A stretch of 40,326 nucleotides of DNA from a virus. Lineage: Duplodnaviria > Heunggongvirae > Uroviricota > Caudoviricetes. The notes beneath the pieces are model-generated. The model was not told the origin of the DNA. It saw only the letters and a program-made list of their open reading frames with translations, and ran no database searches. Within the stretch, counting starts at the first letter, position 1; every line of letters begins with the position of its first letter. The position numbers and the translations under genes were made by a program. The stretch lies in the IMG/VR virus record IMGVR_UViG_2531839665_000018; one strand, 5' to 3'. This document shows positions 3,451 to 15,250 of the stretch, piece after piece.

Positions 3451-3693
3451 ATGGGCAAAGAATATAAAACTCTCATTAATAAAGCACTTGAGCGTTTTTA
3501 TTTTCGCTTAAGTGCATCAGGCGCTCATGCTGAACGTGCAGCCCGTGACTCATTGACCAGGGCAATCCGGAGTCTGTATGACGTGGCTTTTTACGCTGAT
3601 GATCTGGATGCACTTAACGAACTTTCCGAGCTGATCTGTGCCGCAGAATGCGGGGAACATATTGAACCGTATAAGCTGGGGAATATTGCATGA
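3451..3693 (+). CDS. Hypothetical early protein
   Basis: 80-aa ORF, same strand, tightly packed in the early operon. Confidence 0.5.
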   Translation: MGKEYKTLINKALERFYFRLSASGAHAERAARDSLTRAIRSLYDVAFYADDLDALNELSELICAAECGEHIEPYKLGNIA

Positions 3694-3803
3694 GTATATT
3701 TATCTCATGGCTTGTTCTGATTATTTCGGTGGCCTGCGCCATTGGGATTATGCGAATTATTCATTCAGTAAAAAAGATTGAACGCTTTTTCACTGGTGAA
3801 TAA
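3690..3803 (+). CDS. Putative small membrane protein (37 aa), not in the ORF track
   Basis: ATG overlaps the upstream stop (ATGA); product MSIFISWLVLIISVACAIGIMRIIHSVKKIERFFTGE has one hydrophobic helix. Below the 60-aa track cut-off. Confidence 0.3.
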   Translation: MSIFISWLVLIISVACAIGIMRIIHSVKKIERFFTGE

Positions 3804-3896
3804 CGATACAAATAAAACATCAAATTAAATAAGAAAACGTGAAAACCATCCGTATTAACGGGGGTATTCGCACACGCAAATAACGGAGATACAAAA

Positions 3897-4307
3897 ATGC
3901 ACGCAAAAGAAGAAGGTATCATCAGAGCACTGAAAGAAATTTCAAAGACAGAAAACGAAGTAGCGAAAAAAGCCGTGGCAAATGCACATATGGACGTCGC
4001 AACCCACACACTGATAGTCGCAAGAGTCACGGCAGAAGCAGCCGAAATTATCGCAAAACAGGATGCTGAACTGGCGGTTCTCAGAACACAACCAGTCACC
4101 GGACTGGATTTGTCTAACACCGGACGCCTTATTTACACAATTGGCTCGGAGCTACAGCGATACACCATTATCGCCGGATTACAGGATAAATACCTGATCA
4201 CTCCTCACCCCATAAGGGAATCAGAGATTCTGACAAATCTCCGCCTGATAGAGCGCTCTCAAGTTGCATTCATTGATGACGCCCAACACACCGTATTTAA
4301 CGCATAG
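3897..4307 (+). CDS. Hypothetical early protein
   Basis: 136-aa ORF. Confidence 0.5.
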   Translation: MHAKEEGIIRALKEISKTENEVAKKAVANAHMDVATHTLIVARVTAEAAEIIAKQDAELAVLRTQPVTGLDLSNTGRLIYTIGSELQRYTIIAGLQDKYLITPHPIRESEILTNLRLIERSQVAFIDDAQHTVFNA

Positions 4308-6166: not shown

Positions 6167-6282
6167 GTATGCCGTTCTCACAAAAAAACCGCTTGCCATG
6201 CCGCAATCAGTCAGGTTACATTTCCGCTGCACCTCATAAAACGGGTGCCGGGATTCTCAACCCGATACAGAGCAAAGCGCAT

Positions 6283-6303
6283 AACCGCGCAAGCGGTTTT
6301 TTT
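6283..6303 (+). terminator. Candidate intrinsic terminator (GNRA-type loop)
   Basis: AACCGC-GCAA-GCGGTT stem-loop followed by seven T. Confidence 0.4.
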
Positions 6304-6482
6304 GTGCGTACTGTATTGCCACGTCTTTTTCGCGTCAGAATTATGGCGGGGCGTACGGGGCCGACTTCGGTCGGGCCGGATTCTTTGCTCTCCGGTGTTG
6401 AGAACCCTGTACGTCTCGCCACCCCGAGATTCTCAACTCTGGATGGTGAGTTATTTCTATCACCGAGCAAAGAGGCCACACC

Positions 6483-7157: not shown

Positions 7158-9980
7158 ATGACGGCAGAGTACATCAGGGACTGGCAACAACCGCGCCACG
7201 CAGTGGGGCGTGAAGGAACGGGGATCCCCGCTCCTGAATCCGCGCTTTCCTCCTGGCTGGATGCTTACCGGGTAGAGAACGAGCGCCGCCAGGAAATGGC
7301 TGACGCGGCGTTCTCCGCCACACCGCTGGGCAACCTGATTAATAAAAGCCTGGACGCACAGGAAAAGCAGGACAAAACCATCACACTGGCCAGAGAAGCC
7401 AGAAAACAGGCACGCGGTGCGGTGGATGAAGCCATGGCCTCGCTGCGCCTGCTGCCGTCCTATCTGCGCGATCCGCTTATTCGCCACCTCTCCTTCCTGC
7501 GCAAAAAACAGGAAGCCGATCGCCGGAAAGGCAAAAAGAGCTGGCAGGCGGAACGCTATGCACGCGGAACCCTGCGCAAAATATTGGAACGTCTGGCCCG
7601 CACTGACGGACGCTGGCTGACTCCGGGTTATCGCTCCCTTGCCGGACGTGAACGTCTGGACGATTTACTTTACCTGCCGCAGCTCAACAAACACCAGATA
7701 CAGACACTGGCCGTCATGACGGCGGCAATGTTCAGCAGCACCTTCGAAAAACTCTGCGATGGCTTTGGCGCGACCGATGGCGAGCTGACCATGGATATAA
7801 CGCTGAAGGCGTATCAGCTGCTGGCTCGCATGGCGTTACATCTGCACACAGTGCCTCCGCATTATGACGCACTGACAACAGACAAAGACCGGAGGAACGA
7901 ACCGGACACAGAACTGCTGCCGGGTGCAATCCTTCGCCTGACCTGTGCGGACTGGTGGAAACGCAAATTGTGGCTTTTACGTTGCGAATGGAGAGAGGAA
8001 CAACTCCGCGCTGCCTGTCTGGTTTCCAGAAAAACATCCCCCTATCTGAGTCAGGATGCATTAAGTGAATTTCGCGCACAGCGCGAGAAAACACGCGATT
8101 TCCTGAAAAGTTTCATGCTGGAAAATGAAGACGGGTTCACGATTGATCTCGAGACAGTGTATTACGCGGGAGTAAGTAACCCGGTTCACCGTAAGGCAGA
8201 AATGATGGCCACCATGAAGGGGCTGGAACTTCTGGCCGAAGCCCGTGGCGACAAAGCGGTGTTTCTGACTGTCACCTGCCCGTCAAAATACCACGCTACA
8301 ACAGAGAACGGTCATCCGAATCCCAAATGGAACGGGGCCACCATGCGCGACTCCAGCGATTACCTGGTTAACACGTTTTTTGCGGCGGTCCGCAAGAAAC
8401 TGAACCGCGACGGCCTGCGCTGGTATGGCATCCGCACGGTGGAGCCTCACCATGACGGCACCGTGCACTGGCATATGATGGTCTTTGCTCATCCGGAAGA
8501 AATCGACACCATTGTGTCCCACACCCGCGATATTGCCATTCAGGAAGATCGTCACGAGCTGGGCGATGATATTACTCCGCGCTTTAAGGCGGAGTATGTC
8601 GACGGCTCAAAAGGCACGCCAACCAGCTACATCGCCACCTACATCGGAAAAAACCTGGACAGCCGCGCCGTGGATGGCATCGACCCGAAAACAGGCAAAC
8701 CACGCGTTGACCACGAAACCGGAAAATCAATGACCGAGAGCGTGGAACGCGCCATTGGCTGGGCGCGCCTTCACCGGGTCCGCCAGTTCCAGTTCTTTGG
8801 CATCCCCTCCCGTCAGGTGTGGCGTGAACTGCGTCGCCTTGCCAGCCAGATGGCACGCAACCCGGAAGGCCCGCAACGGCTGAAGGATGACGCAATGGAT
8901 GCGGTTCTTGCTGCCGCTGATGCCGGATGTTTTGCCACCTACATTGAGAAACAGGGAGGCGTACTTGTTCCACGCAAGGACTACCTGATTCGCACCGCCT
9001 ACGACCTCGCAGATGAGCTGAACGATTACGGCGAACAGAGCGTACAGATTTACGGGATCTGGTCACCACTCATCGGGGAATCCTCCCGTGTGTGCACGCA
9101 CCCGGATAACTGGAAGCTGGTAAGACGTAAACCGGGAGTAGAAGACAGCGCCCGCGAAAATGGTTTTGACCTTCAGGGCGGCCCTGCCGCCCCTTGGACT
9201 CGTGGCAATAACTGTCCCCGTGTACAGGAAACGGACAACAACGGGGCAGAACAGCCGGAAGAACGGCCAGCACCGTGGCCGCAGCTCCCTGACGGCGTTG
9301 AAGTGAACGAATGGATGCGCTCACTGAAACGGCACGAACGCCGGGCGCTGATGCGTTCGCTTCGTGACAAACAGGCAAAAAACAGCAGTGATGAAATGCA
9401 GAGCTGGACACAGAGCCGCAAACAGCAGCGGCCTTTGCCTGATAACCACGAATTACTCGCTAAAGAATGGCGGGAGTCTGCCGAATCTCTCGGCCTGCAT
9501 ATCGGTGAACAGCAGATGCAGCACCTGCTACGGGGCGGCAGCCTGTACGTTGACGGCAGCATCATTGCACCGCAGGGATATGAAATTGTACGCAAACCGG
9601 ATACCCGCCCGGACAGCCGAATCACGCAGCTCTGGCAGCACCTGAGCCGTAATCACGGCGTAAGCAGCACGGAGATCCGCCATAACCCGGTCGCCAGCTA
9701 TCTGGCACAGCTGGGGGCATCAGACCCCGGAGCCGCCGCACGCCTGGCATCCGCACTTCAGCAGGACCAGAACACCATGAAAACACCCGTTACCGTGCTT
9801 TCTGACATGCTGCGCGCCATCCGCGGCGCAGAGCACGCACAGAGAATCAGTGAAACCACTGAACGCGCCAGCCGCAAAGCAGACCTGCTGCAGGGTGGCC
9901 TGACCAGTGGAAACAAAAAACAGACAGAAACGGGACTCACGAATCCCGTAAATGAGCAAAAAACGCGCAGCGATATATGA
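7158..9980 (+). CDS. A: Rolling-circle replication initiation endonuclease (P2 gpA family) with a ~200-aa C-terminal extension
   Basis: Conserved HUH-type core: VEPHHDGTVHWHMMVFAHPEE and tyrosine-bearing SYIATYIGKNL; 940 aa, longer than typical A proteins. Confidence 0.85.
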   Translation: MTAEYIRDWQQPRHAVGREGTGIPAPESALSSWLDAYRVENERRQEMADAAFSATPLGNLINKSLDAQEKQDKTITLAREARKQARGAVDEAMASLRLLPSYLRDPLIRHLSFLRKKQEADRRKGKKSWQAERYARGTLRKILERLARTDGRWLTPGYRSLAGRERLDDLLYLPQLNKHQIQTLAVMTAAMFSSTFEKLCDGFGATDGELTMDITLKAYQLLARMALHLHTVPPHYDALTTDKDRRNEPDTELLPGAILRLTCADWWKRKLWLLRCEWREEQLRAACLVSRKTSPYLSQDALSEFRAQREKTRDFLKSFMLENEDGFTIDLETVYYAGVSNPVHRKAEMMATMKGLELLAEARGDKAVFLTVTCPSKYHATTENGHPNPKWNGATMRDSSDYLVNTFFAAVRKKLNRDGLRWYGIRTVEPHHDGTVHWHMMVFAHPEEIDTIVSHTRDIAIQEDRHELGDDITPRFKAEYVDGSKGTPTSYIATYIGKNLDSRAVDGIDPKTGKPRVDHETGKSMTESVERAIGWARLHRVRQFQFFGIPSRQVWRELRRLASQMARNPEGPQRLKDDAMDAVLAAADAGCFATYIEKQGGVLVPRKDYLIRTAYDLADELNDYGEQSVQIYGIWSPLIGESSRVCTHPDNWKLVRRKPGVEDSARENGFDLQGGPAAPWTRGNNCPRVQETDNNGAEQPEERPAPWPQLPDGVEVNEWMRSLKRHERRALMRSLRDKQAKNSSDEMQSWTQSRKQQRPLPDNHELLAKEWRESAESLGLHIGEQQMQHLLRGGSLYVDGSIIAPQGYEIVRKPDTRPDSRITQLWQHLSRNHGVSSTEIRHNPVASYLAQLGASDPGAAARLASALQQDQNTMKTPVTVLSDMLRAIRGAEHAQRISETTERASRKADLLQGGLTSGNKKQTETGLTNPVNEQKTRSDI

Positions 9981-10056: not shown

Positions 10057-11016
10057 ATGAAAATTTGTATCGACGACGGCTCCACCAACATCAAGCTGGC
10101 ATGGACTGAGAACGGCGAACGCCGCAACGCCATCAGCCCGAACAGCTTCAAGTCGGAATGGTCTGCGCCGTTCGGTGGCACGCAGCCCGCGAACTACATG
10201 CTTGATGGCGTGCGCTATGGTTTTGATCCGGTCAGCGATCGCTTTGTCCAGACGACCGACACGCAATACCAATACAGTGATGTGAATGTCATTGCCATTC
10301 ATCACGCGCTGGTCAAATCAGGCATCACGCCACAGGAGGTGGATGTGGTTGTTACCCTGCCACTGAGCGAGTATTTCGACACAAACGCACAGCCGGACAT
10401 AGCCAACATCAACCGCAAAAAAGCGAACGTTATGCGCCCGGTGGAGTACCAGAACGGCGAAGCATTCACTATCCGTAACGTGCGGGTTATGCCTGAATCC
10501 ATTCCGGCTGGCTTTAAGGCACTGGCTGACATGAGTCCGTTTGAATCCCTGCTGATTGTGGATTTGGGCGGAACCACGCTGGATGTGGCAAAGGTTCAGG
10601 GGCAGCTGGCAGGTATCAGCCAGGTGTTTTGCGATCCACACGTAGGCGTTTCCCTGATGGCTGATGCCGTGCTGTCGGTGATGGCCACTAACGGTATGCG
10701 TACCAGTCACCACATCGCCAATACCATTATTGAGCACCGTCACGATGAAGCCTGGCTGCGCCAGCACATTCACAATGACGCGCATTACAACAGCCTGATG
10801 GCGGTTATTCGTGAAAAGGAGGAGACACTGAAACAACGAGTGATCCGCGCGCTGGCGGGTTTTTCCGGTTACGGGCGGGTGATGGTTGTCGGTGGAGGGG
10901 CGGAGATTGTGGCACCCGCTATCCGCGAAGCCTGCGGAGTTAATGCGACTTTCATCACGGACGGGGTGCCACAGTTTGCTCTGGTTAATGGGCTGTACGC
11001 AATGAACAAGGAGTAA
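10057..11016 (+). CDS. parM: ParM/StbA-family actin-like segregation ATPase
   Basis: Characteristic motifs along the whole length: IDDGSTNIKLAW, ISPNSFKSEW, YSDVNVIAIHHAL, VMPESIPAG, LLIVDLGGTTLD, FSGYGRVMVVGGGAE, LVNGLY. Confidence 0.85.
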   Translation: MKICIDDGSTNIKLAWTENGERRNAISPNSFKSEWSAPFGGTQPANYMLDGVRYGFDPVSDRFVQTTDTQYQYSDVNVIAIHHALVKSGITPQEVDVVVTLPLSEYFDTNAQPDIANINRKKANVMRPVEYQNGEAFTIRNVRVMPESIPAGFKALADMSPFESLLIVDLGGTTLDVAKVQGQLAGISQVFCDPHVGVSLMADAVLSVMATNGMRTSHHIANTIIEHRHDEAWLRQHIHNDAHYNSLMAVIREKEETLKQRVIRALAGFSGYGRVMVVGGGAEIVAPAIREACGVNATFITDGVPQFALVNGLYAMNKE

Positions 11017-11020
11017 ACCA

Positions 11021-11332
11021 ATGACGACACCAACCAGAAGAATAAGTTTCTATCTGAAGCCAGCTGCCGTCAAGAACGAAGGAGAAGCATGCGCCTGGCT
11101 GGACAGCCTTACACCAGAAGCCCGCAAAAGCGGCCAACGCGTGGCTTTTCTGGCCGGGCTGGCACTTCTGAAGACGAATCCGGCAGAGGCTTACCGACTG
11201 GCCGCATGGGCTGATGATGAGATGTTACCTGTGACACAAATCAGCTCAAAAAAGTTTGACGCACAGTCTGCACCAGTGGCTAAGATAACCAGCCAGATGG
11301 CTGGGAATATCCGGGCGTTATTTCCTGAGTAA
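11021..11332 (+). CDS. parR: ParR-like partition adaptor
   Basis: 103-aa ORF 4 bp downstream of parM; N-terminal pattern RRISFYLKP...LDSL...LAGLALL resembles ParR; call also rests on synteny. Confidence 0.55.
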   Translation: MTTPTRRISFYLKPAAVKNEGEACAWLDSLTPEARKSGQRVAFLAGLALLKTNPAEAYRLAAWADDEMLPVTQISSKKFDAQSAPVAKITSQMAGNIRALFPE

Positions 11333-11460
11333 AAGCATCTGCGCGAAAAATGCTCACATTTATAGAAACAGTATCATTCCATTTGGCGCACTTACTTCAA
11401 TAATCGATCTGTTAAACAAATAGATTGTCTATTATCTATCGATTAAAACGATCAATTATC

Positions 11461-11488
11461 TTGACAGTAATGTGCCTTTTTGTAAGAT
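11461..11488 (+). promoter_or_regulatory. Candidate sigma70 promoter (-35 TTGACA, 16-nt spacer, -10 TAAGAT) with GATC overlapping the -10
   Basis: Read directly; AT-rich upstream region with further GATC sites at about 11406 and 11450. Confidence 0.4.
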
Positions 11489-11696
11489 CGTTCGCATTGT
11501 GAGCGACAAGATAATTGCGCGGCATTGTCCATGCAAAACGCCCCAATAGCAGCAACTATTGGGGCGTAGAACTCGGTCGGACTCACTTAACCTGATATGC
11601 GTGCCTTCCGAAGTAAATCAAAATGTGCGTCGTATATTTTATTGCTTACACGCACCTCTGTAAAGGCACGCATATTTTTCCTATGAGGTAAATAAA

Positions 11697-11966
11697 GTGC
11701 GGGCTAAAACAGGTATTTGCAAGAACCCTCATCGTTATAACCCAACATTTCTGTCTCTCCCTGAATATCAAGGACAAGAAGGTCGGCACAAATGCGCTGC
11801 CTGTGCTTTTGAGCTAGGCATAAAAGATGCGCTTGAAGGACGCGCTATGGCTCAGAATGATTTAGTTTTAGCTAACATTCCGTTTAGCCAGGCTGGAACT
11901 GTAAGGCACAGAGATGCTTATGAAGCATATGTTCGTGGTTGGCGATTAATACACAGCAACAATTGA
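11697..11966 (+). CDS. Hypothetical small Cys/His-containing protein
   Basis: 89-aa ORF, GTG start with RBS GAGG; Cys/His cluster CKNPH...HKCAACAFE; followed directly by a strong terminator. Confidence 0.4.
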   Translation: MRAKTGICKNPHRYNPTFLSLPEYQGQEGRHKCAACAFELGIKDALEGRAMAQNDLVLANIPFSQAGTVRHRDAYEAYVRGWRLIHSNN

Positions 11967-11973
11967 TATTTTT

Positions 11974-11999
11974 AAAGCGCCGATAAGGCGCTTTTTTTT
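11974..11999 (+). terminator. Intrinsic terminator
   Basis: AAAGCGCC-GATAA-GGCGCTTT stem-loop followed by TTTTT. Confidence 0.6.
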
Positions 12000-12160
12000 G
12001 TTTGCACGATAGTGCACAAGTTTGCACAATTTTTTTGAACGACTTTTTGTACTTCCGGCCCGCGTGGCGGCTGGATCCGTCAAGGATCCGTACGTGCACA
12101 AAAAACACGTTTTTTCTACGCGCAGGTGACGGGGGAACAGCCCGCGTTTCAGGGGGTAAA
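12000..12160. other. Candidate cos/packaging region
   Basis: Position (between the accessory region and the 3' end of portal gene Q) matches P2/186 cos; repeats TTTGCAC x3, GGATCCGT x2, palindrome AAAAAACACGTTTTTT; G-rich segment CGCAGGTGACGGGGGAACAGC (12121-12141) loosely resembles the P2-family cohesive-end motif as recalled from memory. Exact cos not identified. Confidence 0.25.
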
Positions 12161-12452: not shown

Positions 12453-13499
12453 TCAGGATGTGGGCTGGGTGTCTAACAGTGCGTAAGGGTTAAAGCGGAT
12501 CACCTCTTCGCCAAGCCAGTCATTGATGTGCTTCATGGCCTCCATGACGGGCATCAGCTCGTTAATTGCGTAAACCCGCGCAGCCTTCTCCACATCACCA
12601 AACGCACTTTTTTCGCCCGGCATCGCCCCCATCAGTTGCGGCGGAACGCGGTGCGCAGCCAGCACATCATCACGGGATGCCGCCTTAACATTCATGAACT
12701 CATCCTTTGCGGTGATCTGCTGGAACGGCAAAATTTGCACCCCCTCTTTGCCCCCGTTGGGCGCATGAATGAGCACGTTTTTAAACGCACCGCCACCACG
12801 TGCACCCTGTAGCGTTTCTTTCAGGGAGTCCATGCTTTCGCGGTTTACCTGCGCTGCACCGATGTAGATGATGCACCCGGCGTGGGATCCATTGTCGTAA
12901 TACAGTTTTCTGAACATGTCCGCCGAATGAGACAGGCTGGCCGAGAGTAATGCGCCGAGATATTCCGGCATGCCGTAAATTTCCTGGTTAATGTCCGGAT
13001 TCATCAGGTGGCACACTTTGCCAGGGCGAAACTGAAACGCGTCCTTGCCATCCTGCACATACCACCATGATTCAAGATCGCTTCCGCGTCGCATGTATTT
13101 CGCCAGTGCGTGCCGTAATTTAAGTGGTTCGCCGAGCATATTGCTCCGAAGCTCAAGGAATGCGTTACCGAACACAAACCAGTCCAGCGCCAGCGCCGAG
13201 AAATCCTGCCGGGAAAGCAGCGGGTGCGGGATGTAGCAACCGAGCAATACATTGCGCTTAAAGTAAAGCGCAGACTGATGCCAGGACGTTTGCCGGGCGG
13301 CTCTTGCCAGACCGTACCAGTCCACCGGGGTTTCATACCACCGCCCGTTATCAGCACAGTACATATTGTCCAGCAGGTCATGCCCGGTCAGGCGATAAGG
13401 ACCATCAAATGTGAATGCACTGAGCGATGATTCTTTCCTGAGCGCATCAGCGAGATCAATGCGTGAACTCATGCGCACTTTTTTATTTTTTCTGCTCAT
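12453..13499 (-). CDS. Q: Capsid portal protein (P2 gpQ family)
   Basis: 348 aa; position and strand (leftward, paired with terminase P) as in P2. Confidence 0.85.
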   Translation of the reverse strand: MSRKNKKVRMSSRIDLADALRKESSLSAFTFDGPYRLTGHDLLDNMYCADNGRWYETPVDWYGLARAARQTSWHQSALYFKRNVLLGCYIPHPLLSRQDFSALALDWFVFGNAFLELRSNMLGEPLKLRHALAKYMRRGSDLESWWYVQDGKDAFQFRPGKVCHLMNPDINQEIYGMPEYLGALLSASLSHSADMFRKLYYDNGSHAGCIIYIGAAQVNRESMDSLKETLQGARGGGAFKNVLIHAPNGGKEGVQILPFQQITAKDEFMNVKAASRDDVLAAHRVPPQLMGAMPGEKSAFGDVEKAARVYAINELMPVMEAMKHINDWLGEEVIRFNPYALLDTQPTS

Positions 13500-15250
13500 C
13501 AGAACTCCATAACCGTGAAACGCTCGTTTTCTCCTTCGCCGCCAATTGGTTCGTTAATGACAGCAAGCATGGTTGCCCACGCAAGGTCGCCGTGGCTGAT
13601 CCCCCTCGCGCGGTCCGTTTCGTAAGTGATAAAGCCGCCCGGTGTTTTCACCTTACGCACGGCGTTAAAGGCCGCGACCAGCTCGCGTTCGGCGCGATCG
13701 TATTCCCACCGTCCGGCACGCATTATTTGCAGCATTTTCAGTACCAGCGACCGTTTTGATGACAGCGTGAAGGTGTACGGAATAGCGGCAGGGAAAAACC
13801 GCTTCACTATCTGATAAACAGCCTCCCCGTTCCCGCCCGTCACATCAATGCCGATGTGTTCCACGTTGTAGCGACACGTGAACTCTTCAATGACTCTGGC
13901 CTGTTCTTCAAACTCCAGCCCCTGAACGCGTCGCGTCTCCACCGTTCGAAAACGGCCACCAGGAACAGCCGGAGGAACCACCACGGACACAGCGCCGCTG
14001 TCCCCGTTGCCACTGCTGCCGTTTGCGTCATACCCAATCCATACCGGACGATTCCCCATCGGGCGGGGAGCAAAAGGTTTCCAGTCTTTCCAGTCGTCGT
14101 ATCCGTCAACACCGCAGCCAATCAGGATATTCAGGTTAAATGCCGATTCCCCTTCGCGAACAAACTCACACATATAGAGATTGAGGAACTCGTCTTCGGT
14201 GTTTTCATCACGGATTTCGTCAATATCGGTGTGTTTCCAGCCGTGATTAACCACATCTTCCAGCGTGACAATTTGCCGCCACGTCCGGTCAGGGCAGATA
14301 AGCCCGTTATGCAGCGTTTTCCAGTCCACAGAAAAACGCTGGCGTTTATGCGAGGCCTTTTTCTCGTTCCAGCGGTCGCCGTTCCAGTAGGCGTATGCCT
14401 CGTGCGTTTCGGTGGATGGCGTGGAGAAGTAGGTGCGCCGCAGTCCGCTGAGGGTTGCCATAGCGCCAGCCACCTTGCGCAGTTCGGCAAAGCGACTGAC
14501 CCAGAAAAATTCATCAAAATAAAAATTGCCCGTATAGGACTGTGCCGACGCAGCAGAAGTGCCGAGAAAATGCAGCTCTGCGCCGTTTGAGAGGATGATT
14601 TTATCGCCCCCTTTCAGCTCCACATCAACTTCAGCCGCGGCCTTCTGAATAATGCTTTTAAACTGGAACGCCTGACGACGCGACGCAGACAAAAAAATCT
14701 GGTTACGCTGGTAAGGTTGCGCCACATCGTCACGCAGCGCCATCAGCAGTGCTTCCTGTGCAAAATACCAGGTCGCCCCAATCTGTCGGGATTTCAGGAT
14801 CATCCTGTTACGTATCCCGGCTTCCCTGCAAAGGGTCAGGGAGTCAAACCAGCCCCGCTGATGCCACTCCAGCCTGCTGATGATTTTTTCCCGCAGTGCG
14901 GCAATCTGTTCCGGCGTGAAATGATTTTTGAGTTTTTTCGCCCGGCCTTTCTTTCCTGTGGCCGTCGCATCCGGCTGGCCATCATGCAGTTTTTTAAGCT
15001 GCCGGGTCAGCAGGTCTATTTCCTTGAAGTCACCACCTGTTTTATTCTGTTTTTCAGTGAGCTGGATGAGGCGCGCATCGATGGACTGCGTGACACGCTG
15101 CACGGGTGGCGTTTCATCCCACTGGTCGCGTTTTTTCCACGCATAAATCGTGTTCGGGTTTATTCCCATCAGACGTGATATTTCTGCGGGCGGATAACCC
15201 TGCCAGTAAAGTTGCCGCGCACGCTGGCGCACAAAAGCGTCCTGAATCAT
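13499..15250 (-). CDS. P: Terminase large subunit, ATPase (P2 gpP family)
   Basis: 583 aa, N-terminus MIQDAFVRQRARQLYWQGYPPAEISRLMGI; overlaps the Q start; divergent from O. Confidence 0.9.
   Translation of the reverse strand: MIQDAFVRQRARQLYWQGYPPAEISRLMGINPNTIYAWKKRDQWDETPPVQRVTQSIDARLIQLTEKQNKTGGDFKEIDLLTRQLKKLHDGQPDATATGKKGRAKKLKNHFTPEQIAALREKIISRLEWHQRGWFDSLTLCREAGIRNRMILKSRQIGATWYFAQEALLMALRDDVAQPYQRNQIFLSASRRQAFQFKSIIQKAAAEVDVELKGGDKIILSNGAELHFLGTSAASAQSYTGNFYFDEFFWVSRFAELRKVAGAMATLSGLRRTYFSTPSTETHEAYAYWNGDRWNEKKASHKRQRFSVDWKTLHNGLICPDRTWRQIVTLEDVVNHGWKHTDIDEIRDENTEDEFLNLYMCEFVREGESAFNLNILIGCGVDGYDDWKDWKPFAPRPMGNRPVWIGYDANGSSGNGDSGAVSVVVPPAVPGGRFRTVETRRVQGLEFEEQARVIEEFTCRYNVEHIGIDVTGGNGEAVYQIVKRFFPAAIPYTFTLSSKRSLVLKMLQIMRAGRWEYDRAERELVAAFNAVRKVKTPGGFITYETDRARGISHGDLAWATMLAVINEPIGGEGENERFTVMEF

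What the first reader, a model, noticed from the sequence alone, without database searches (positions are those of the whole stretch)
11333..12000. Self-contained unit: promoter, ~190-nt structured RNA, small Cys/His ORF, strong terminator
A near-consensus promoter (11461-11488) with GATC over its -10 precedes two strong structures. The first is a perfect 11-bp hairpin (11539-11566). The second is a perfect 13-bp stem ATATGCGTGCCTT / AAGGCACGCATAT (11595-11607 with 11663-11675) enclosing an inner hairpin and followed by TTTTT, ending just 5' of the SD and GTG of an 89-aa ORF (11697-11966). That ORF ends in a strong terminator. This could be an sRNA, an attenuator or riboregulator controlling the small ORF, or a type I/III toxin-antitoxin-like module.
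Basis: seen in the sequence. Interest (0 to 1): 0.6.

Follow-up and report, generated by a model that had tools for sequence, protein, structure and literature searches.

The report
Antisense-controlled prophage cassette for GATC-linked protein
The interval is a real, self-contained prophage accessory cassette with a promoter carrying Dam sites, a structured leader, a previously unnoticed opposite-strand small RNA gene, a small Cys/His protein gene and a terminator; the protein's relatives in other bacteria sit inside GATC-cutting restriction-modification systems, so the cassette links phage gene control to GATC methylation.

Summary
Comparison with about 30 diverged copies in P2-like, lambdoid and P22-like prophages of Enterobacterales and Orbales shows they are conserved parts of one mobile cassette.

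New here: a convergent minus-strand promoter (TTTACA-17-TAAAAT, 11664->11636) lies inside the long stem. Its -35 hexamer and the T, A and T of its -10 are invariant in all aligned lineages. The 12-bp hairpin covaries strongly, and its mismatch pattern fits selection on the minus strand. It is therefore probably the 3' stem-loop of a ~95-nt cis-antisense RNA, not part of a sense sRNA. The long stem is selected on the plus strand.

GATC is fourfold enriched in these leaders. One site is fixed 6 nt upstream of the -35.

The 89-aa ORF is a real gene of a large unnamed family: no Pfam domain, PHROG 3941, a confident AlphaFold model and no structural neighbour. Outside Proteobacteria the gene sits in DpnII-type GATC restriction-modification cassettes in 9 of 10 contexts.

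Best reading: an antisense-RNA-damped, Dam-gated accessory gene whose product acts on GATC methylation or restriction. No expression, toxicity or protein function has been shown.

The parts
11450..11453 (.). Conserved GATC (Dam site), 6 nt upstream of the -35 of the sense promoter and 33 nt upstream of the -10 start
   Evidence: The position is fixed at -32 to -34 in about 30 of 33 distinct leaders although the flanking bases vary. Sequence read.
11461..11489 (+). Sense promoter P(+): TTGACA, 16-nt spacer, TAAGAT, with GATC (11486-11489) overlapping the -10. Predicted start near 11495-11496.
   Evidence: A promoter at the same distance from the ORF is present in all lineages. TAnGATC occurs in 13 of 33.
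11538..11567 (-). Hairpin 1, 12 bp with a 6-nt loop. Proposed 3' stem-loop and terminator of the antisense RNA. It is followed on the minus strand by UUU(U)G (11537-11534).
   Evidence: Covariation: 89% of cells paired against 63% shuffled, and 95 against 30 cells changed on both sides. There are 28 distinct stems in 31 loci. Non-Watson-Crick positions are G.U on the minus strand 11 times and on the plus strand 3 times.
11535..11629 (-). Predicted cis-antisense RNA of about 95 nt. The 5' ~19 nt are single-stranded. It is complementary to the sense leader, including the 5' arm of stem 2.
   Evidence: Inferred from the P(-) position and hairpin 1. Fold (z = -3.3). The equivalent RNA is predicted at 66-76 nt in the other lineages. 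No expression data.
11595..11675 (+). Stem 2: a perfect 13-bp outer helix enclosing the inner hairpin 11625-11630 / 11650-11655, followed by a U-tract (to 11679)
   Evidence: A long stem of different sequence is kept at this place in every lineage and is more stable on the plus strand in 30 of 33. Plus-strand-only U.G pairs are seen.
11636..11664 (-). Antisense promoter P(-): TTTACA (11664->11659), 17-nt spacer, TAAAAT (11641->11636). Predicted start near 11628-11630.
   Evidence: TGTAAAG and the A, T and A of AnnnTA are invariant columns among 30 diverged leaders. TTTACA-17-TAnnnT is present in all 47 genuine cassette leaders among the 49 analysed. The TTTACT-17-TAGAAT variant is seen in L121.
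11685..11688 (+). Shine-Dalgarno GAGG, 8 nt before the GTG
   Evidence: The homologous position carries GAGG, AGGT or AAGGTG in relatives.
11697..11966 (+). Gene for an 89-aa basic Cys/His protein. C8, H12, C33 and C36 are invariant, as are R30-H31, S64-Q65-A66 and R70-H71.
   Evidence: PHROG 3941, E = 6e-49. 1715 clusters at E <= 1e-3, all 'hypothetical' and none of the listed ones with a Pfam domain. Alignments. AlphaFold pLDDT 86 and pTM 0.81. No structural neighbour.
11974..12002 (+). Intrinsic terminator: 8-bp stem with 5 G-C pairs, 5-nt loop, T8
11400..11459 (.). Imperfect 26-nt inverted repeat rich in ATCGAT/GATC, upstream of P(+). It probably does not belong to the cassette and is a candidate ParR site (parC) or operator.
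   Evidence: I1. It is conserved only in the ParMR-carrying P2-like lineages (window, L001, L047, L050, L051) and is absent from lambdoid copies.

Best explanation
The interval is an autonomous prophage accessory ('moron') cassette. The same cassette sits between the replication/partition genes and cos in P2-like prophages, and between cI and N in lambdoid and P22-like prophages.

Proposed working:
1. A sigma-70 promoter decorated with Dam sites makes an mRNA with a ~200-nt structured leader for a small, probably zinc-binding protein.
2. A convergent promoter inside the loop of the long leader stem makes a ~95-nt RNA (about 70 nt in other lineages). This RNA is perfectly complementary to the leader and ends at the 12-bp hairpin.
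3. Pairing of this antisense RNA with the leader, including the 5' arm of the long stem, keeps the gene silent. It creates a long duplex (an RNase III substrate) and releases the 3' arm, which in most lineages contains or abuts an anti-Shine-Dalgarno sequence. Collision between the two facing promoters may add to this.
4. Methylation of the promoter GATC sites adds a second gate, so expression depends on the Dam state of the DNA (fully methylated prophage versus newly replicated or newly injected DNA).
5. The protein belongs to a family that outside Proteobacteria is a component of DpnII-type GATC restriction-modification cassettes. It most likely binds nucleic acid and acts on GATC methylation or restriction.

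Shown by comparison: the conserved parts, their strand assignment, the GATC pattern, the reality of the gene and its neighbourhoods.

Inferred only: that either promoter fires, the RNA ends, the direction of regulation, Dam dependence and the protein's activity.
For: Cassette mobility:
- P2-like context.
- Lambdoid cI-N context.
- P22-like phage BIS08P22.

Antisense promoter:
- 10 of 12 matches with a 17-nt spacer.
- Its -35 and the three key -10 positions are the invariant columns in an otherwise 54%-identical alignment of 30 leaders.
- Present in all 47 genuine cassette leaders among the 49 analysed and, as TTTACT-17-TAGAAT, in L121.

Hairpin 1:
- Covariation score 0.67 against 0.21 shuffled, 0 of 500 shuffles as high; slid controls 0.06-0.15.
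- C.A mismatches on the plus strand, equal to G.U on the minus strand, 11 against 3.
- A U-run follows it only on the minus strand.

Stem 2:
- Kept with unrelated sequences in four lineages.
- Plus strand more stable in 30 of 33, by a mean of 4.6 kcal/mol.
- Near-fixed U.G pairs that would be A.C on the other strand.

Predicted effect of the antisense RNA:
- Masking the antisense target lowers predicted RBS accessibility in 22 of 31 leaders and raises it in 3.

GATC:
- 121 sites in 33 leaders against 29.6 +/- 5.3 in shuffles, the commonest 4-nt palindrome, with one site fixed in position.

Protein:
-.
- DpnII-cassette neighbourhoods with changing gene order across several phyla.
- Fusions to NOV_C and HNH_2 nuclease domains.
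- A fusion protein sitting between a D12 methyltransferase gene and a DpnII gene.
Against: - There are no transcript data for either strand.
- The U-tract after hairpin 1 on the minus strand is short and interrupted (UUUCCCUUAU in most lineages, UUUUG here), so termination there is plausible but not canonical.
- In this window's lineage the predicted change in RBS accessibility is small, 0.52 to 0.47. Here stem 2 with its U-tract looks more like a terminator, which would make antisense pairing activating rather than repressing.
- The window lacks the two GATC sites that most lineages carry in the antisense promoter.
- The hairpin alignment used for one search was anchored on the best hairpin of each sequence and so leans towards the structure.
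- In the restriction-modification cassettes GATC is depleted and absent from the promoter regions examined. Nothing there shows that the protein binds GATC.
Confidence: 0.6

Rival explanations
1. Type I toxin-antitoxin module. The 89-aa protein is toxic, the antisense RNA is the antitoxin, and the cassette stabilises the prophage or aborts infection.
For: - Convergent antisense RNA gene over a long, highly structured 5' UTR, with SD-occluding alternative pairings.
- Predicted antisense size of 66-96 nt, similar to Sok, RNA-OUT or Sar (size comparison from general knowledge; lengths).
- Location next to a ParMR stability system and in lysogen-expressed accessory-gene positions.
Against: - The protein is basic and soluble, predicted helical with no hydrophobic segment.
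- Homologs are co-operonic with methyltransferase and DpnII genes, and one sits inside hrcA-grpE-dnaK, all without this leader or any antisense promoter. That is unlike an intrinsically toxic product.
- No PADLOC hit.
Confidence: 0.15
2. Transcription attenuator. In this lineage stem 2 plus its U-tract is an intrinsic terminator that stops most P(+) transcripts at about 11680, giving a ~185-nt leader RNA. Antisense pairing or a protein disrupts it to allow read-through into the ORF.
For: - A perfect 13-bp stem followed by U4-5 immediately before the SD.
- U-rich sequence follows stem 2 in the L001, L036 and major lineages.
- Little predicted RBS change on masking in the window type.
Against: - The U-rich stretch is absent in L046. 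In the major lineage it is the loop of an SD-sequestering hairpin rather than a tail.
- The 55-nt interior is long for a terminator, and the scan did not call it.
- An activating antisense RNA would be unusual.
Confidence: 0.2
3. Sense small RNA. The promoter makes a ~190-nt structured non-coding RNA that acts in trans, and the ORF is expressed independently or not at all.
For: Strong predicted structure of the sense RNA, z = -4.5, and a terminator-like end.
Against: - Hairpin 1 shows minus-strand selection.
- No separate promoter lies between stem 2 and the ORF.
- The SD, the start and the protein are conserved together with the leader in all lineages.
- No Rfam family matches: best E = 0.12, and only the bare hairpin.
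Confidence: 0.08
4. The upstream promoter-like and GATC-rich DNA is the centromere (parC) of the adjacent ParMR system, and the structures are incidental.
For: - ParM and ParR lie immediately upstream.
- The 26-nt inverted repeat at 11400-11459 is conserved only in ParMR-carrying lineages.
Against: P(+), the fixed GATC, hairpin 1, stem 2 and P(-) are all equally conserved in lambdoid and P22-like prophages that have no ParMR. Only the 11400-11459 repeat can belong to parC.
Confidence: 0.05

Closest known systems
Type I toxin-antitoxin loci with a long structured 5' UTR (hok/sok, and the soluble-toxin cases symE/symR and ralR/ralA)
   Same: A small protein gene whose structured leader is overlapped by a short, convergently transcribed cis-antisense RNA ending in a stable stem-loop. 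Alternative leader pairings occlude the SD. The loci are carried on mobile elements and prophages.
   Different: The protein is not a membrane peptide and nothing indicates toxicity. The antisense RNA covers only the leader and stops about 55 nt upstream of the SD. There is no sequence, Rfam or Pfam relationship. Homologs elsewhere lack the RNA part altogether.
IS10/Tn10 pIN with RNA-IN and RNA-OUT
   Same: Face-to-face promoters, an antisense RNA of about 70 nt, and a GATC in the -10 of the sense promoter that ties expression to the Dam methylation state. The IS10 comparison rests on general knowledge.
   Different: RNA-OUT covers the start codon and RBS of RNA-IN; here the overlap is purely in the 5' UTR. 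The product is not a transposase. An additional GATC is fixed upstream of the -35, and most lineages also have GATC in the antisense promoter.
Phage antisense RNAs (lambda OOP, P22 sar, P1/P7 c4)
   Same: Short, terminator-ended antisense RNAs in temperate-phage regulatory or accessory regions. The sar and ctRNA models gave the best, non-significant Rfam matches to hairpin 1, on the minus strand.
   Different: Those matches are to the bare hairpin only (E = 0.12-0.17, 22 bits against gathering scores of 43-45). The targets and positions differ. A genuine C4/isrK pair lies elsewhere in this window (6229-6426).
Accessory and controller genes of type II restriction-modification systems (C proteins); lambda Ral as a functional analogy
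   Same: Homologs are small genes inside DpnII-type cassettes, in several cases directly upstream of and overlapping the endonuclease gene, as C genes are. Ral is likewise a small Cys-containing phage protein near N that modulates a restriction-modification system (general knowledge).
   Different: No helix-turn-helix, no Pfam match and no fold neighbour. Gene order relative to R and M varies. There is no sequence similarity to Ral or to C proteins.

Membership tests
Prophage moron (autonomous accessory cassette) | Own promoter and own terminator flanking a gene that is not part of the phage's core programme | tested here: met
   P(+) at 11461-11488 and the terminator at 11974-12002. Both are conserved with the gene.
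Prophage moron (autonomous accessory cassette) | The same cassette inserted at different places in unrelated phage backbones | tested here: met
   P2-like prophage between parR and cos. Lambdoid prophage between cI and N. P22-like phage.
Type I toxin-antitoxin system | Antisense RNA gene overlapping or abutting the toxin mRNA | tested here: met
   Conserved convergent sigma-70 promoter and terminator-like hairpin. This rests on sequence inference only; no transcript data.
Type I toxin-antitoxin system | Small hydrophobic or membrane toxin | tested here: not met
   89 aa, basic, predicted helical and soluble, with no hydrophobic stretch.
Type I toxin-antitoxin system | The product is toxic when expressed without the RNA | not testable with these tools
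   Indirect evidence against: homologs sit in operons without any antisense RNA.
Type I toxin-antitoxin system | Translationally inert mRNA fold with SD sequestration | tested here: inconclusive
   SD-sequestering hairpin or anti-SD in stem 2 in the L001, L036 and major lineages. Only weak pairing in the window type.
Type III toxin-antitoxin system | Tandem RNA repeats upstream of an endoribonuclease gene, separated by a terminator | tested here: not met
   No tandem or multi-copy direct repeats in 11300-12150. The protein has no ToxN/AbiQ-type or PADLOC match.
IS10-type Dam-gated sense/antisense pair | GATC within the -10 of the sense promoter | tested here: met
   TAAGATC at 11483-11489. TAnGATC in 13 of 33 lineages. 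The methylation effect itself was not tested.
IS10-type Dam-gated sense/antisense pair | The antisense RNA covers the RBS and start codon of the sense mRNA | tested here: not met
   The predicted antisense start, ~11629, is 56 nt upstream of the SD.
Intrinsic-terminator attenuator | G+C-rich stem directly followed by a U-tract between promoter and gene, conserved in relatives | tested here: inconclusive
   Present here: 13 bp plus U4-5. Relatives show U-rich sequence in most lineages, none in L046, and in the major lineage it is a hairpin loop.
Any Rfam RNA family | A match reaching the family's gathering score | tested here: not met
   Best hit 22 bits against gathering scores of 43-45. No match over the leader in 12 related loci.
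PHROG 3941 (phage protein family, function unknown) | Full-length profile match | tested here: met
   E = 6.3e-49, residues 4-89 on profile positions 1-86 of 86.
Restriction-modification controller (C) protein | Helix-turn-helix DNA-binding domain | tested here: not met
   No HTH or other Pfam domain. No fold neighbour.
Restriction-modification controller (C) protein | Small gene within a restriction-modification operon, typically just upstream of R | tested here: met
   True for homologs, not for the window copy. M-X-R with overlapping or adjacent genes in L059-L062 and L145-L148. Other gene orders.

The most novel reading that the evidence does not exclude
The small protein is a new kind of zinc-containing module that reads GATC sites or their methylation state. 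It serves as an accessory or targeting part of DpnII-type restriction-modification systems, either free or fused to PD-(D/E)xK or HNH nucleases. Enterobacterial temperate phages have captured it into a switch that is gated twice, by Dam methylation of both facing promoters and by a cis-antisense RNA. It would then be made only from un- or hemi-methylated phage DNA (just injected or just replicated). There it would modulate restriction, Dam, MutH or SeqA action at GATC sites, possibly also binding the conserved GATC sites of its own promoter.
Probability: 0.2. Interest if true: 0.85.

Novelty: new variant of a known kind. Interest (0 to 1): 0.66.

Why it matters
- It defines an undescribed, widely spread regulatory cassette of temperate phages of enteric bacteria. 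A cis-antisense RNA, a covarying leader and Dam-site-laden facing promoters can all be tested directly in available strains such as ETEC H10407, O111 and O157 isolates.
- It gives a first functional lead for a large unnamed protein family: at least 1715 clusters at 90% identity, no Pfam domain, and a confident model with no fold neighbour. The lead is its consistent residence in GATC-specific DpnII-type restriction-modification cassettes and its fusion to nuclease domains.
- The gene is unannotated in most RefSeq E. coli genomes that carry it, so it is invisible to annotation-based surveys.
- If the link to GATC methylation holds, it would be a new way for phages to couple an accessory function to the epigenetic state of their own DNA.

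Tried and rejected
- Rfam on the region at a permissive threshold, on 12 related loci and on the whole window found nothing for the leader. It found only the bare hairpin at E = 0.12-0.17, plus an unrelated isrK/C4 pair elsewhere.
- A single-sequence word search found only 2 near-identical proteins. The family appeared only with an alignment query.
- Retron: rejected, because there is no reverse transcriptase nearby.
- Type III toxin-antitoxin: rejected, because there are no tandem repeats.
- Hairpin 1 as a plus-strand terminator of parR or of P(+): rejected, because no U-run follows it on the plus strand and P(+) lies upstream of it.
- GATC sites as operators in the restriction-modification cassettes: not supported, because GATC is depleted there and absent from the promoter regions examined.
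- Literature searches for the protein accessions, the PHROG number, and DpnII/Dam/antisense combinations found no description. In the Salmonella prophage transcriptome paper PMC7067206 no locus could be identified with this cassette.
- MAFFT alignments of whole leaders misalign the covarying hairpin, so a loop-anchored alignment was used for the pair counts.
Full report
**Setting**

The window is a P2-like (P88/Xuanwuvirus-like) E. coli prophage.
- The finding lies after the replication gene gpA (7158-9980), a ParM gene (10057-11016) and a ParR/StbB gene (11021-11332).
- It lies before the cos-proximal region and the portal and terminase genes on the minus strand (12453-15250).
- The 668-bp interval is 98.5-100% identical in 166 of 5,426 complete E. 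coli genomes, always on the chromosome. In most of the listed records nothing is annotated under it.

**The observation**

Every feature is present.
- Promoter: TTGACA-16-TAAGAT at 11461-11488, with GATC at 11486-11489.
- Hairpin 1: a perfect 12-bp hairpin at 11538-11567.
- Stem 2: a perfect 13-bp stem, 11595-11607 with 11663-11675, around an inner 6-bp hairpin and followed by a T-run.
- Translation signals: SD GAGG at 11685-11688, GTG at 11697, an 89-codon ORF ending at 11966.
- Terminator: a canonical terminator at 11974-12002.

The sense leader folds far better than shuffles, z = -4.5. The promoter match alone is not above chance (2 found, 2.1 expected), so its reality rests on conservation.

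**The ORF is a real gene of a large, unnamed family**

- It matches PHROG 3941 end to end, with function unknown.
- A diverged E. coli prophage with the same synteny (L001) has an unannotated 92-aa homolog at 59% identity.
- Scans with alignments recovered homologs in Providencia, Proteus, Yersinia, Rahnella, Serratia, Salmonella, Cronobacter, Pantoea, Arsenophonus, Gilliamella and Frischella. They also recovered homologs in Firmicute, Spirochaete and Endomicrobia metagenome bins.
- There are 1715 clusters at E <= 1e-3. All are named 'hypothetical' where named, and no Pfam domain is recorded for any of the 120 best listed.
- Invariant residues are C8, H12, C33, C36 (a likely zinc site), R30-H31, S64-Q65-A66 and R70-H71.
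- AlphaFold gives a confident, mainly helical model, pLDDT 86 and pTM 0.81.

**The leader is conserved as an architecture, on two strands**

Upstream regions of about 30 distinct copies share one plan although most of the sequence differs. The plan is promoter, short 5' hairpin, hairpin 1, A-rich spacer, long stem 2, SD, start.

1. A minus-strand promoter lies inside stem 2.
   - In the window it is TTTACA-17-TAAAAT, 11664->11636.
   - In a 30-sequence alignment with 54% mean identity, the invariant columns are TGTAAAG (the -35 read on the plus strand) and the A, T and A of AnnnTA. These are the T, A and T that matter most in a -10 hexamer.
   - All 47 genuine cassette leaders among the 49 analysed have TTTACA, 17 nt, TAnnnT. 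The other two were chance TGTAAA matches in non-proteobacterial loci, later set aside. An Orbales-type copy has TTTACT-17-TAGAAT.

2. Hairpin 1 covaries and looks selected on the minus strand.
   - Thirty-one loci carry 28 different stems at the same place.
   - On a loop-anchored alignment, 89% of cells pair against 63% in shuffles. Ninety-five cells have changes on both sides against 30. The covariation score is 0.67 against 0.21, and 0.06-0.15 for slid partners. The alignment was anchored on each sequence's best hairpin, so it leans towards the structure.
   - Where pairing is imperfect, it is C.A or A.C on the plus strand, which is G.U on the minus strand, 11 times, and G.U on the plus strand 3 times.
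   - On the plus strand the hairpin is preceded by GGAAA or CAAAA and followed by A-rich sequence. A U-run therefore follows it only on the minus strand: UUUUG here, UUUCCCUUAU in most lineages.

3. Stem 2 is selected on the plus strand.
   - It is kept with unrelated sequences in the window, L001, L036 and major lineages.
   - It is more stable on the plus strand in 30 of 33, by a mean of 4.6 kcal/mol.
   - It contains nearly fixed U.G pairs that would be A.C on the other strand.

Together these define a predicted cis-antisense RNA from ~11629 to ~11535, about 95 nt here and 66-76 nt in the other lineages. It has a single-stranded 5' end and a terminal stem-loop. It is fully complementary to the mRNA leader, including the 5' arm of stem 2.

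**How it probably works**

- In the L001 and L036 lineages the 3' arm of stem 2 ends in an anti-SD (CACCTC, CCCTG). This anti-SD can pair with the SD once the 5' arm is taken away.
- In the major lineage the 3' extension of stem 2 (GGCAC) is also the 5' arm of a hairpin that buries the SD (GGCACCTT / AAGGTGCT).
- Forcing the antisense target to be unpaired lowers predicted RBS accessibility in 22 of 31 leaders and raises it in 3.
- In the window's own lineage the effect is small, 0.52 to 0.47. There stem 2 with its U-tract looks like a terminator, so attenuation is a live alternative for this copy.
- A 95-bp sense/antisense duplex would also be an RNase III substrate, and facing promoters ~175 bp apart can interfere. 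Both points are inference from general knowledge.

**GATC**

- GATC is the commonest 4-nt palindrome in these leaders: 121 sites in 33 leaders of 250 nt, against 29.6 +/- 5.3 in shuffles with a maximum of 47.
- One site is fixed 33 nt upstream of the -10 start in about 30 of 33 lineages although its flanks vary. In the window it is at 11450-11453.
- TAnGATC over the -10 occurs in 13 of 33, including the window.
- Most lineages, but not the window, also carry GATC in the spacer and near the start of the antisense promoter.
- This pattern points to control by Dam methylation state, as at IS10 pIN (general knowledge), or to a GATC-specific binding factor.

**What the protein is linked to**

- In lambdoid and P22-like prophages the cassette sits between cI and N, the position of lysogen-expressed accessory genes.
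- Outside Proteobacteria the leader is absent and the gene lies in DpnII-type cassettes in 9 of 10 distinct contexts. These cassettes comprise a D12-class (Dam/DpnM-like) methyltransferase, a DpnII endonuclease and an N6_N4 (DpnA-like) methyltransferase.
- The gene order in those cassettes varies:
  - M-X-R;
  - M-R-X-M2;
  - M-R-M2-X, or M-R followed by a DUF6996/6997 gene and then X;
  - an HTH gene, a PD-(D/E)xK-like gene and X, divergent from the methyltransferase/DpnII operon.
- The exception is hrcA-grpE-X-dnaK.
- The domain also occurs fused to NOV_C (PD-(D/E)xK-like) and HNH_2 nuclease domains, and to WYL and DndB.
- One NOV_C fusion sits between a D12 methyltransferase gene and a DpnII gene.
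- The family is therefore tied to GATC restriction-modification and probably binds nucleic acid. Its activity is unknown.
- GATC is depleted in those cassettes and absent from the promoter regions examined, so they give no evidence for GATC operators.

**Comparison with known systems**

- The regulatory layout works like a type I toxin-antitoxin locus and like IS10 RNA-IN/RNA-OUT. It fails defining features of both: there is no hydrophobic toxin, and the antisense RNA does not cover the RBS.
- It is not a type III module, a retron or any Rfam family.
- The protein is not a helix-turn-helix controller protein.
- No paper was found that describes the cassette or the family.

**Verdict**

The unit is a self-contained, regulated small-gene cassette, and Dam involvement is plausible. 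It is wrong about strand for the first hairpin.
- The best reading is an antisense-damped, Dam-gated prophage accessory gene of a new family linked to GATC restriction-modification.
- Nothing about expression or protein function is shown yet.

Noticed in passing
window 6229-6303 and 6339-6426 (+): Rfam matches above gathering score to isrK (63 bits) and C4 antisense RNA (78 bits). This is a P1/P7-type c4/ant-like immunity element inside a P2-like prophage, just upstream of gpA. The same isrK/C4 pair lies about 1 kb upstream of the small gene in the unrelated locus L088 (275-473).
   Followed up: no
window 10057-11332 (+) and 11400-11459: An R1-type ParM/ParR (StbA/StbB) partition pair sits inside an integrated P2-like prophage. 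It is followed by a 26-nt imperfect inverted repeat rich in ATCGAT/GATC. The repeat is conserved only in the ParMR-carrying lineages and is a candidate parC centromere.
   Followed up: partly
window 11697-11966: The 89-aa gene is not annotated in most of the listed RefSeq E. coli genomes that carry an identical copy (24 of 38 listed full-length rows show no feature). The 92-aa homolog in L001 (4277-4555) is also unannotated.
   Followed up: yes
window 11973-12120: This stretch after the terminator is conserved across P88-like phages at 86-92% when the cassette itself is absent. Two phage records start here, Escherichia phage 500465-2 at window ~11870 and Xuanwuvirus P884B11 at ~12052. It contains direct repeats GTTTGCAC(G/A)AT (12000, 12020) and GGATCCGT (12073, 12084). 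It is probably the cos/terminase recognition region.
   Followed up: partly
window 11453-11463 and 11507-11517: A perfect 11-nt inverted repeat, CAATTATCTTG / CAAGATAATTG, brackets the P(+) core from the -35 to about +20. It is a possible operator. It was not seen in the L001 lineage.
   Followed up: no
window 7158-9980: The gpA replication endonuclease is 940 aa. The Phage_GPA domain covers residues 179-503 only, so there are long N- and C-terminal extensions of unknown role.
   Followed up: no
alignment A7, pair 6 of hairpin 1 (window 11543 with 11562): The sixth pair from the stem base is unpaired in 15 of 30 lineages (A.A, C.A, G.A), although it is paired in the window. A conserved internal mismatch in a long stem is a feature of several antisense RNAs.
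   Followed up: no
L076-L080 (gene at 4001-4264): In a mouse- and pig-gut Firmicute the homolog is inserted in the heat-shock operon between grpE and dnaK, with no restriction-modification genes nearby. This is the one context that does not fit the DpnII association.
   Followed up: no
L063-L067, L149-L152, L052: In one type of DpnII cassette the small gene follows an HTH (C-protein-like) gene and a 175-aa protein with a weak PD-(D/E)xK (PDDEXK_11) match. This parallels the fusion of the small domain to the NOV_C nuclease-like domain seen in L158.
   Followed up: partly
L068-L071 (leader 3622-4001): The Yersinia lambdoid copies carry an insertion of about 80 nt in the leader between hairpin 1 and stem 2, with an extra hairpin. 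The promoter finder therefore mis-called their P(+), and they were left out of the statistics.
   Followed up: no
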